Positions 3,001-6,000 of a DNA stretch of 38,930 bases are shown here, one piece after another. Every line of letters begins with the position of its first letter. Position 1 is the stretch's first letter. The position numbers are program-made. Origin of the DNA: a virus (Duplodnaviria > Heunggongvirae > Uroviricota > Caudoviricetes); the IMG/VR virus record IMGVR_UViG_2545824708_000026; one strand, given 5' to 3'.

Positions 3001-6000
3001 ATCACGCAGAAGTGGGTCGTATTGCGTGTTGAAATACTCTGGATATGGGGCCGGGAGCTGGTGAGTTGTTGTTACACAAATGACGTTATTGCCATATTTC
3101 ATCATCTGGCGTTTACCAGCCTCGCGCAACTCCGCAACACCATCGTAATTTGCTGATGGTTGACCAGCACCGCCAATAAATGACTGGCTATACCACATCC
3201 ACGGCTCAACCCAAACAGGGATACGACCAAGGCCATTGCAATATAAGACAAACTCATCTATCAGTGCCGCCATATAATCGCCGTTTTGGTTTGCCTGCCC
3301 TTCGTTAGTTCCGGCAACCATAATAACGATGTAAGCATCACCCGGCCCCTGAGCCTTCAGGAGATCTAACTGTTGCCTCATTGTCTGTCCGGCAACCGCC
3401 TTGTTTACAATGCTATATGAACGGTGGCCGTTCGCTCCATCCATTAATTGCGGAATGTACGAGCTGAACGCGGAAATGAAATCCTCAGCTGTACTATCAC
3501 CGTGGATAAGGATATTAAGTGGAGGCTTACCGTGCACGCCATTATCAGAGGTGTAGCTGCATAATCCAGTTACACGCGCAGAACCTCCAGATGCCGGGGT
3601 CAGTGCAACAAACCCAACTTCGTATACATCCCCTACATCAGCAGTATCAAAGGGCAAACGTATCCCAACGCCATTCATCGTTATCTGCGCCCAGTTTTTA
3701 CCTTGCAGTGATACGCCAACGGTTGCTTTGCCCGGGGCGTACGACAGTAAACCTCCTGGCAGCGGGAATGGAGTTCCTTCTGCTACTGGACCACCAATTG
3801 GTTTCTGTCTATAAGACCACTGTGTAGCACCTGGTGCCCCATAGAACATCATCCAACCACCAGAGCATCGCAGAACAATCCCAACTTCTGAGGCGGCCTG
3901 AGATTCCATGCGAATATGTGCAGAAATATGCTCTCCAATATCTATTGGTGCGAACAGGCCTGTTGTACGGTTAGTAGTTAAGGGGAAGATAGCTGCGCTA
4001 TCTGAGGATATGGTGACTTCACCTTCATAGAAGAACGTGTCACCATTTATGGAATAAACTTTACAATCTGACCATTCCACTCGCTTCATGCGAATAGGGT
4101 TTCGGTTGAGGATGGCCTGCTTAGCCAGGTAATCCACTTCTCCACCGGTTGCTTTAAAGTTCAGGTGCGTAAATTCAAACGTACCCTCCCCCTCGTACTG
4201 CAACGATTTAAACAGTGAGTACAGATCACTGTCGAATCTCAGGGTGACATTTTTATCAATGATTACTTTACTGTTCGCAAGGAAAGAAGCGTTAGCAGCT
4301 GTAGACGGTACGGTGTACACCATCTGATTTTTTGAATGATTAGAGAAGTAAACATACCCGTAGGTCGCAACACTATCGCGCCATGCCTGGACTACGTTAG
4401 AATTATCATAACTTGGAATTTTTGTGATCGACTGCAAAACAAGATCTTCCTGTGAGATAGCTCCGTTTACCAGATTAACACCTCCTTGAGATGCAAGATC
4501 TTGCCTGAGTTGGTCAGGGTCATACTTCAGCACATTTGGGAATTTGAACTGCTGTGCACCATACGCATCATAAACAGCCATAGAATGGCCTTGCTCAGTT
4601 ACGAATTTGGCAATCTGTCCGTTATATACCGGATAACCAGCAGCGTTAATGATGATTGGTTGCGAAACAGGAACGTGAGAACCGTCTTCGTTCTCCACAT
4701 AAACCTGAATCTGGTTTTCAGGATTTACCGGGTCAGTGTCAATTTTACCGATATAAATTTTGCCATTGGCTACAGCTTAAAAAGAACGAGCCATAGTGAA
4801 GAGTTGCGAAGGCATACTCACTACAACATTGGCATTTATTGAATCTGTCATTTGATTTGCTCCAGATACAAGGAATGGCCGCAGCATGGCTACGGTGAAT
4901 TTTGGGCATAAAAAAACCCAGCCGAACCTGGGTCGTTGCGTTGGTTATCTGTCAGTAGTTATGTACTGAAGGGTTTTTATGGATACCCCAGATGACGATT
5001 GGTTAATTTTTGACATTACCAAGACCATATTGACTACTTATAAAATGAGATCAATATTTAATCGCCCAATAACGGGTGTGTGTTGAGGTATATCATGGCG
5101 AAAAAACCAGGTGAAAACACAGGAAAAAACGGCGGAATATACCAAGAAGTTGGCCCGCGCGGCGGTAAGAAAGACAATTTTGCCACCGTCAAGGACAACG
5201 AAAGGCTTCCACCAACAACAAAGCCAGGTCATGGCTGGGTATTGGATAAGCGAACTCCAGACAGCAAAAAGTAATAATCAAGCCGGTTCACTCCGGCTTT
5301 TTGATATGTCGCTCGCAGAACTCAACAAGCCTGCTCATTAAGTAGCAGTAAGTCTCGTTGGCTCTTCCTGGTTCAACATCAACACCTACCCTTGAGCAGA
5401 TATCGAATGCCATGTGAGCGCACTCATGGGCAATAGTAGATAGTTTGCCATTGAACACGCCTATCACATGCAAAACACCATTCTCGCTACTCATTGTATG
5501 AGACGCTCCGTTGGCGTCAGAGTCATGCACGTCAACGCCAAGTTTTTGATGCAGGCGTTGCCATTCTGGAAAGTCTCTACAAAACACAATTGTACCGCTC
5601 TCAAAGAGCGGAACGAGCATCTTTGGTACGTTTCCAATGTTAACTTTTTTCATGGTATCCTGCTCAAAACTAAGGAGGTTGGTGTGTATATATCGCTATC
5701 TACCATTTTTTTCATCTGCTTAGCTATTTGGCTTTTAAGAATATGGCAGGATTGCTCTGTCAGCCATGCTGCTGCGGGGAGAAATAAAAACGCCCTCATA
5801 AAAGAAGCTGAAAACGTTGTCTTATCAATGGATCACCTTTCATGGACCGAGATGACTACAGGGCAACAAGAGGTTTATGAGTGTGCGATTGAGCGGTTAA
5901 GGCTGCTTAAATCGTACAAAAAGAACCACGCACCCGACTCATTCCCATTCCTGAAAGAATGGCCGAGATGGTATGACCCGAAAAAAGCAACCATCAACCG

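What the first reader, a model, noticed from the sequence alone, without database searches (positions are those of the whole stretch)
4777..4779. In-frame ochre (TAA) codon at codon 25 of the tailspike gene
Translation from the ATG at 4851 gives [35 protein letters not shown]...; homologues have Lys (AAA) at this position, so this is a single-base nonsense change in a highly conserved N-terminus. The remaining 722 codons are intact. Without the head-binding N-terminus the tailspike could not attach to the virion, so the prophage would be defective for infectious particle production unless the codon is suppressed or a sequencing error.
Basis: seen in the sequence. Interest (0 to 1): 0.6.

Follow-up and report, generated by a model that had tools for sequence, protein, structure and literature searches.

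The report
Probable sequencing error in tailspike gene
The stop codon at codon 25 of this prophage tailspike gene is really in the deposited sequence, but it is most likely a base-calling error of a known Illumina kind rather than a mutation that cripples the phage.

Summary
The window is E. coli 179100 draft contig APZJ01000053.1. It holds yfdC, tRNA-Arg and intS, followed by a P22/Sf6-like prophage. The TAA at 4779-4777 (minus strand) is codon 25 of a 746-codon tailspike gene and lies inside the head-binding domain. About 148 other distinct tailspike N-termini retrieved here have Lys there, AAA wherever the codon was read. The gene differs from an intact allele (L008, P0003) by this one base in 2,241.

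The change is TTTT-A to TTTT-T: the base after a homopolymer copied from the homopolymer. Where a 99.86% identical relative exists, 8 of the window's 10 private substitutions are of this type, against a baseline of 13-14% (p about 2e-6). They include two 9-G runs made by clustered changes. One abolishes the intS stop codon. The other rewrites two residues of the large terminase. Control assemblies carry about one private change each. This pattern matches the published Illumina post-homopolymer and GGT error modes.

The same TAA occurs in two other low-quality sequences that carry similar private changes. It was absent from complete E. coli genomes in the three sequence contexts tested.

Verdict: probably an artefact (about 0.7). 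If real, it is a very recent, ordinary nonsense mutation that would give tailspike-less particles. Low interest.

The parts
4777..4779 (-). In-frame TAA, codon 25 of the tailspike gene. The base at 4779 (T on the coding strand, A on the + strand) is the only difference from the intact allele. It corresponds to APZJ01000053.1 position 43710.
   Evidence: contig mapping
2611..4851 (-). Complete tailspike reading frame: 746 codons plus stop. It is identical to intact protein P0003 except at codon 25.
4510..4842 (-). Head-binding domain (PF09008, residues 4-114), 94% conserved with Sf6 gp14 residues 1-121. It contains codon 25.
2611..4698 (-). The 695-aa ORF from GTG codon 52. This is what GenBank annotates as 'tail spike protein' END32290.1. 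The weak AGG upstream of the GTG lies in a hairpin stem.
2968..3501 (-). GDSL/SGNH-hydrolase-like region of the receptor-binding part (residues 451-628). The Pfam match is below the gathering score.
   Evidence: RefSeq names of relatives
4915..4934 (-). Terminator-like hairpin just upstream of the tailspike start. The same position is annotated 'terminator' in HK620 and epsilon34.
2393..2401 (+). Run of 9 G at the end of intS, where about 40 relatives read GGTGGAGTG. Three substitutions to G abolish the TGA stop, changing the product from 385 to 393 aa. This is the same error signature as the TAA.
19197..19211 (-). A second 9-G run on the coding strand, plus a GGT to GGG change, in the large terminase gene. 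All 16 relatives read GG(G/T)GAGTGGAAAGGTAAGC. The motif GGEWKGK becomes GGGGKGK.
5778..5778 (+). Private GGT to GGG substitution.
13913..13913 (+). Private TT-A to TT-T substitution in the coat gene (V295E). It has the same form as the TAA change.
14949..14949 (+). Private GGT to GGG substitution in the scaffold gene (T254P).
15400..15400 (+). Private GGGT to GGGG substitution in the scaffold gene (K103N).

Best explanation
The TAA is most likely a consensus base-calling error in a 2013 draft assembly, and the organism most likely has AAA (Lys). On the coding strand the sequence reads TCT TTT TAA where relatives read TCT TTT AAA. The first base after a run of four T has been called as T. This is the Illumina 'post-homopolymer' substitution, in which lagging molecules still report the run's base. 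The same process, and its GG-N to GGG variant, left about a dozen other marks in this window. Shown: the form of the change, its absence from every close relative, and the excess of such changes in this assembly. Inferred: that the excess is technical rather than biological, and that the TAA belongs to it. On this reading the prophage has a normal 746-aa tailspike and nothing marks it as defective.
For: 1. The whole 2,241-nt gene, and the 3.4 kb between window 5778 and 2400, differ from Logan contig L008 only at 4779.
2. Where L008 is 99.86% identical and the panel is deep (1-15.5 kb), 8 of 10 window-private substitutions extend an adjacent run. The expectation is 12.5% for random substitutions, 14% (89/623) for singletons in the panel, and 13.8% (387/2808) for private variants of all other loci. 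The binomial p is 2e-6, or 8e-5 if the G9 cluster counts as one event.
3. Two 9-G runs were each made by 2-3 clustered substitutions relative to all relatives. One destroys the intS stop codon. The other changes two residues (E-W to G-G) of the large terminase.
4. Nine of the 10 private changes are non-synonymous: one stop loss, one stop gain, V295E in coat and T254P in scaffold among them.
5. Control assemblies of the same prophage type (L008, L009, L015) have one private variant each in 10-14 kb.
6. Every window protein tested by exact look-up that carries private variants is unique to GCA_000356905.1 among about 15 billion proteins: intS, tailspike ORF, gp14 and portal. The two tested without private variants, gp16 and small terminase, are widespread.
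7. The other two TAA-bearing sequences look error-prone too. L006 has coverage 2.65 and a private TT-C to TT-T change 108 nt away. L005 has a private GGT to GGG change.
8. The TAA is absent from complete E. coli genomes in three sequence contexts. The AAA versions of two of these contexts occur in 64 and 229 genomes.
9. Post-homopolymer substitution and the GGT motif are documented Illumina error modes (PMC8002175; PMC4787001).
Against: No reads were available, so the error is inferred and not seen. A consensus error needs most reads at a site to be wrong, which is unusual at normal coverage. The platform and coverage of this assembly are not known to me. Most of the clear artefacts are G-run extensions, and only 13913 and 23427 share the T-run form. 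The region used for the statistic was chosen after seeing where a near-identical relative exists. Over the whole window the run-extending share is an ordinary 15 of 106, because most private variants elsewhere are real divergence. The same TAA in three unrelated sequence backgrounds could equally mark a true mutational hot spot, since polymerase dislocation at TTTT/AAA gives the same product.
Confidence: 0.72

Rival explanations
1. A real, very recent, sporadic nonsense mutation in the lysogen. Translation stops after 24 residues and no head-binding domain is made. An otherwise intact prophage would then release tailspike-less, non-adsorbing particles on induction, as classical P22 gene 9 nonsense mutants do.
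For: The sequence as deposited says so. The prophage is otherwise complete, so the defect would be recent. Small and large terminase, portal, scaffold, coat, gp4, gp10, gp26, gp14, gp7, gp20, gp16, the lysis genes, Q and the repressor are all full length. Truncated tailspike ORFs occur in about 2% (3/151) of sampled loci, so such pseudogenes do exist. A prophage gene is not under selection while the phage is dormant.
Against: There is not one further change in 2,241 nt relative to the intact allele. The change has the same form as a set of private changes in this assembly that are hard to accept as biology, notably the two G9 runs. Control assemblies show about one private change per 10-14 kb, of which only about 14% would extend a run. 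The prior that this particular change is a real mutation is therefore low.
Confidence: 0.17
2. A real recurrent hot spot. AAA to TAA at the TTTT/AAA junction arises repeatedly by polymerase dislocation, or is selected, in P22-like prophages and repeatedly disarms them.
For: The same TAA is present in three unrelated backgrounds: the window; L005, which has a different receptor-binding domain; and L006, which has different synonymous sites 6 nt before and 3 nt after the codon. Nonsense versions of three neighbouring one-step codons (K31, K36, Y33) gave 0 hits in viral contigs, against 1 for K25.
Against: The counts are 1 versus 0, which is not significant. There are none in complete genomes in the contexts tested. 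All three carriers are draft or low-coverage sequences with other private run-extending changes. A sequence-specific sequencing error predicts the same recurrence.
Confidence: 0.08
3. A functional stop. Either it is read through or suppressed (programmed recoding or an ochre suppressor), or translation restarts downstream to give a free, N-terminally truncated enzyme.
For: The 695-aa ORF after the stop is intact and carries the whole receptor-binding part, including the GDSL-like region. The first in-frame start after the stop is GTG at codon 52, which has an AGG 5 nt upstream.
Against: The stop is not conserved, since all close relatives have AAA. Slippage of one base in either direction on UUU-UAA gives out-of-frame products, as read directly from the sequence. 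The window's tRNAs are Arg-CCT, Thr-TGT and Asn-GTT, and none is a suppressor. The GTG is 79 nt downstream of the stop and its AGG lies in a hairpin stem. A product starting at residue 52 would lack half of the head-binding core, which spans residues 17-106.
Confidence: 0.03

Closest known systems
Illumina post-homopolymer and GGT-motif substitution errors (Stoler & Nekrutenko 2021, PMC8002175; Schirmer et al. 2016, PMC4787001)
   Same: The substituted base equals the preceding run's base: TTTT-A to T, and GG-T to G. The error sites are sequence-specific and so can recur in independent data sets. They cluster in G-rich stretches.
   Different: Those papers describe per-read errors. Here the errors would have had to reach the assembly consensus, which I could not verify without reads. 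The sequencing platform of this assembly is not known to me.
P22 gene 9 (tailspike) nonsense mutants (classical phage genetics; from my own knowledge, not checked in a paper here)
   Same: If the TAA is real, an early stop in the tailspike gene of a P22-like phage would give particles that lack spikes and cannot adsorb.
   Different: Those are laboratory amber mutants grown on suppressor hosts. This is an ochre codon in a natural draft genome, with no evidence that it exists in the cell.
Tailspikes of Sf6 (gp14), HK620 (gp9) and P22 (gp9), with their exchangeable head-binding domain
   Same: Residues 1-122 align with Sf6 gp14 at E = 1.7e-64 and with P22 gp9 at about 1e-46. The gene sits at the end of the late operon after the ejection proteins, preceded by a terminator as in HK620.
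   Different: The receptor-binding part has no sequence match to any solved tailspike. It carries a weak GDSL/SGNH signature instead of matching the glycosidase bodies of the Sf6, HK620 and P22 tailspikes.

Membership tests
P22-like tailspike (Head_binding, PF09008) | N-terminal head-binding domain matching PF09008 and the solved Sf6 and P22 N-domains | tested here: met
   PF09008 matches at E = 2.4e-63 over residues 4-114. Sf6 gp14 chain 7sg7_A matches at E = 1.7e-64.
P22-like tailspike (Head_binding, PF09008) | Position at the end of a P22-type late operon, after gp7, gp20 and gp16 | tested here: met
   The gene order coat, gp4, gp10, gp26, gp14, gp7, gp20, gp16, tailspike is seen in the window's own contig.
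Sequencing artefact: post-homopolymer substitution | [quoted passage not shown] | tested here: met
   The coding strand reads TCTTTT-T-AAG, against TCTTTT-A-AAG in 127 other matches.
Sequencing artefact: post-homopolymer substitution | The variant is private to the assembly, and the same assembly shows an excess of such changes | tested here: met
   8 of 10 private changes extend a run, against a baseline of 13-14%. There are two G9 runs. Controls have one private change each. Caveat: the TAA itself also occurs in L005 and L006.
Sequencing artefact: post-homopolymer substitution | Reads show the reference base, or a strand-biased minority or majority at the site | not testable with these tools
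   No access to the reads of GCA_000356905.1. No independent assembly of the strain was found by exact-protein look-ups.
Prophage pseudogene by nonsense mutation | In-frame stop inside a conserved, required domain | tested here: met
Prophage pseudogene by nonsense mutation | The stop is inherited, that is, shared by related genomes, or is accompanied by further decay | tested here: not met
   There is no other change in 2,241 nt relative to the intact allele. The stop is absent from complete genomes in three contexts. For contrast, the TGA at 37334-37336 is shared with 5 complete genomes.
Programmed recoding (readthrough or frameshift) | The stop codon is conserved among homologues | tested here: not met
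   The codon was AAA in all 127 other matches read. Only 3 of 151 distinct loci have a stop.
Programmed recoding (readthrough or frameshift) | A slippery site or stimulator that restores the frame, or a cognate suppressor tRNA | tested here: not met
   Slips of one base in either direction at UUU-UAA lead to early stops (sequence). No suppressor tRNA is present in the window.

The most novel reading that the evidence does not exclude
The TAA is real and marks a recurrent hot spot. The TTTT/AAA junction at codon 25 of the shared head-binding module mutates to TTTTT/AA independently in different P22-like prophages. Each event leaves an otherwise perfect prophage that can only release spikeless particles, and this happens often enough to be seen three times in public data.
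Probability: 0.08. Interest if true: 0.35.

Novelty: not a real feature. Interest (0 to 1): 0.1.

Why it matters
It matters mainly as a caution. A prophage that looks disabled by one elegant nonsense mutation is probably intact. Several proteins deposited from this contig are probably wrong in the public databases: the 695-aa 'tail spike protein' END32290.1, a 393-aa integrase with a lost stop, and a large terminase with GGGG in place of GGEW. Pseudogene calls, prophage-intactness scores and 'unique protein' counts drawn from such drafts inherit these errors. If the TAA were real, it would be an ordinary recent inactivation of a prophage structural gene.

Tried and rejected
1. Recoding. I checked slips of one base in either direction at UUU-UAA by eye. 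I also checked conservation of the stop. Both came out negative.

2. Suppressor tRNA in the prophage. Only Arg-CCT, Thr-TGT and Asn-GTT are present.

3. Restart. In-frame starts after the stop are GTG at codon 52, ATG at 91, GTG at 107 and TTG at 139. None has a convincing ribosome-binding site, and the first is preceded by a hairpin.

4. Inheritance or gene conversion of the TAA. L005 shares about 120 identical nucleotides around the TAA with the window. L006, however, differs 6 nt before and 3 nt after it, so at least two origins are needed.

5. A hot-spot test with neighbouring nonsense codons gave 0, 0 and 0 against 1, which has too little power.

6. Searching for an independent assembly of the same strain by exact look-up of strain-specific proteins. 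The tailspike ORF, intS, gp14 and portal each returned only the GenBank contig.

8. A window-specific 47-mer, meant to identify the source genome of L005, proved common in viral contigs (102 hits) and did not settle it.

9. A literature search for strain 179100 found nothing.

10. The run-extension statistic over the whole window is uninformative (15 of 106). Outside 1-15.5 kb the panel lacks a near-identical relative, so private variants there are ordinary divergence.

Full report
**What is there.** On the minus strand an ATG at 4851 opens a 746-codon frame that ends at 2611. Codon 25 (4779-4777) is TAA. Residues 4-114 match the Pfam head-binding domain (PF09008, E = 2.4e-63). Residues 1-122 align with the solved Sf6 tailspike N-domain (7sg7, E = 1.7e-64) and with P22 gp9. 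In Sf6 this domain (residues 1-123, core 17-106) is what attaches the spike to the tail hub (PMC9728967).

**Where the window comes from.** The 695-aa ORF after the stop is GenBank protein END32290.1, 'tail spike protein [Escherichia coli 179100]'. It lies on draft contig APZJ01000053.1 of GCA_000356905.1. The window runs through yfdC, tRNA-Arg(CCT) and intS, and then a P22/Sf6-like prophage read backwards from tailspike to early-left genes.

The morphogenetic and control genes are all full length. This covers small and large terminase, portal, scaffold, coat, gp4, gp10, gp26, gp14, gp7, gp20, gp16, holin, endolysin, spanin, Q and the repressor. Taken at face value, the tailspike stop would be the only obvious defect.

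**How the gene compares with relatives.** Codon 25 was AAA in all 127 other matches where it was read. Of 151 distinct tailspike N-termini, only the window's own contig, L005 and L006 have a stop.

An intact protein, P0003 (746 aa, seen on 10 contigs), equals the window's conceptual product at every residue except 25. Logan contig L008 is 99.86% identical over 14 kb. Between window 5778 and 2400 its only difference is 4779, and the 2,241-nt gene differs at nucleotide 73 alone. The change is therefore either extremely recent or not real.

**The clue from the neighbours.** I polarised the window's differences against a panel of related loci and listed those that no other sequence shares. In 1-15.5 kb there are ten:
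- 2395, 2398 and 2400 in intS;
- 4779, shared only with L005 and L006;
- 5778, 10163, 13913, 14673, 14949 and 15400.

Eight of the ten convert a base into the base of the adjacent run. The expectation is 12.5% for random substitutions and 14% (89/623) for singletons in the panel. The binomial p is 2e-6, or 8e-5 if the intS cluster counts once. Over all other loci 13.8% of private variants (387/2808) extend a run.

The intS cluster turns GGTGGAGTGA into GGGGGGGGGA. This removes the TGA stop and gives a 393-aa integrase found nowhere else. A second 9-G run lies in the large terminase gene. All 16 relatives read GG(G/T)GAGTGGAAAGGTAAGC where the window reads GGGGGGGGGAAAGGGAAGC, so GGEWKGK becomes GGGGKGK.

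Nine of the ten private changes alter the protein. Control assemblies of the same prophage type (L008, L009, L015) have one private variant each in 10-14 kb. The four window proteins tested that carry private variants (intS, tailspike ORF, gp14, portal) are unique to this assembly among about 15 billion proteins. The two tested without private variants, gp16 and small terminase, are widespread.

**Interpretation.** Two documented Illumina error modes fit this pattern. One is substitution of the first base after a homopolymer by the homopolymer's base. The other is the GGT motif as the most error-associated trimer (PMC8002175; motifs ending in GG, PMC4787001).

The tailspike change is TTTT-A to TTTT-T on the coding strand, which has the same form, as does TT-A to TT-T at 13913. 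Controls suggest about one real private change per 14 kb, of which about 14% would extend a run. The window has six or more run-extending changes in that span. The odds that 4779 belongs to the excess process are therefore high.

That the excess is technical rather than a strange mutator phenotype is an inference. It rests mainly on the two G9 clusters. I put the artefact at about 0.72.

**The recurrence.** A degenerate scan for TAA at this codon found one hit in IMG/VR and one in metagenomes, and none in species-representative genomes. The IMG/VR hit is L005, which has a different receptor-binding domain. The metagenome hit is L006, with coverage 2.65.

L006 differs from the window 6 nt before and 3 nt after the codon, so the events are independent. 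Both carriers have other private run-extending changes: GGT to GGG in L005, and TT-C to TT-T 108 nt away in L006.

In complete E. coli genomes the TAA is absent in three sequence contexts. The AAA versions of two of these contexts occur in 64 and 229 genomes. Nonsense versions of three neighbouring codons gave no hits in IMG/VR, but 1 against 0 proves nothing. A sequence-specific error explains the recurrence at least as well as a mutational hot spot does. I cannot exclude the hot spot (about 0.08).

**If the TAA is real.** Translation would stop after 24 residues. UAA-G is not a leaky context (my own knowledge). No suppressor tRNA is encoded in the window. Slips of one base in either direction at UUU-UAA run into stops. 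The first in-frame restart codon is a GTG 79 nt downstream, behind a hairpin.

The prophage would then make spikeless, non-adsorbing particles, as classical P22 gene 9 nonsense mutants do (my own knowledge). That is an ordinary outcome. About 2% (3/151) of sampled tailspike loci are truncated.

**Verdict.** The most likely reading is a consensus sequencing error and not a biological feature. Novelty is nil and interest is low. The decisive test is a read pileup or Sanger sequencing at APZJ01000053.1 position 43710.

Noticed in passing
window 2393-2401 (+), end of intS (1245-2426): A run of 9 G replaces GGTGGAGTG, which about 40 relatives read. It abolishes the TGA stop and extends the integrase from 385 to 393 aa. 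That product is unique to this assembly. It is almost certainly an assembly error.
   Followed up: yes
window 19197-19211 (C9 on the + strand), large terminase gene 18000-19496 (-): A second 9-G run on the coding strand, plus a GGT to GGG change. All 16 relatives differ. The motif GGEWKGK becomes GGGGKGK.
   Followed up: yes
window 37241-37984 (+), stop at 37334-37336: An early-left gene has an in-frame TGA at codon 32. The gene is 100% identical to L232, and the equivalent CDS is annotated 'internal stop' by PGAP in five complete E. coli genomes (L231-L235). This is a real, inherited stop, in contrast to the private TAA.
   Followed up: partly
window 2611-4500 (-), especially 2968-3501: The receptor-binding part of this tailspike has no sequence match to any solved structure. 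It carries a weak GDSL/SGNH-hydrolase signature (E = 7.5e-4, below the Pfam cut-off). RefSeq names 800-aa relatives with other N-termini 'SGNH/GDSL hydrolase'. It may be an esterase-type spike rather than a glycosidase.
   Followed up: partly
L005 2331-2333 (IMGVR_UViG_2579778992_000002) and L006 136-134 (ERZ773177 NODE-4794): The same K-to-TAA change at the same codon occurs in two unrelated tailspike genes. Both sequences carry other private run-extending substitutions.
   Followed up: yes
window 22626-22781 (-): tRNA-Thr(TGT) and tRNA-Asn(GTT) genes lie inside the prophage, between the Q-like antiterminator and the holin.
   Followed up: no
window 4950-6010: There is no immI region (arc, mnt, ant) between gp16 and the tailspike, unlike relatives L001, L002 and L012. 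Three small ORFs of unknown function (106, 121 and 76 aa) lie there instead.
   Followed up: partly
window 20711-21190 (-): A 159-aa ORF between the lysis genes and the small terminase gene has a precomputed Pfam hit to Tad2-like (PF11195), a family linked to anti-defence proteins.
   Followed up: no
L034, L036, L077 (IMG/VR loci): Three of 151 tailspike loci have ORFs of only 110-204 aa after a normal head-binding N-terminus. They may be truncated or remnant tailspike genes.
   Followed up: no
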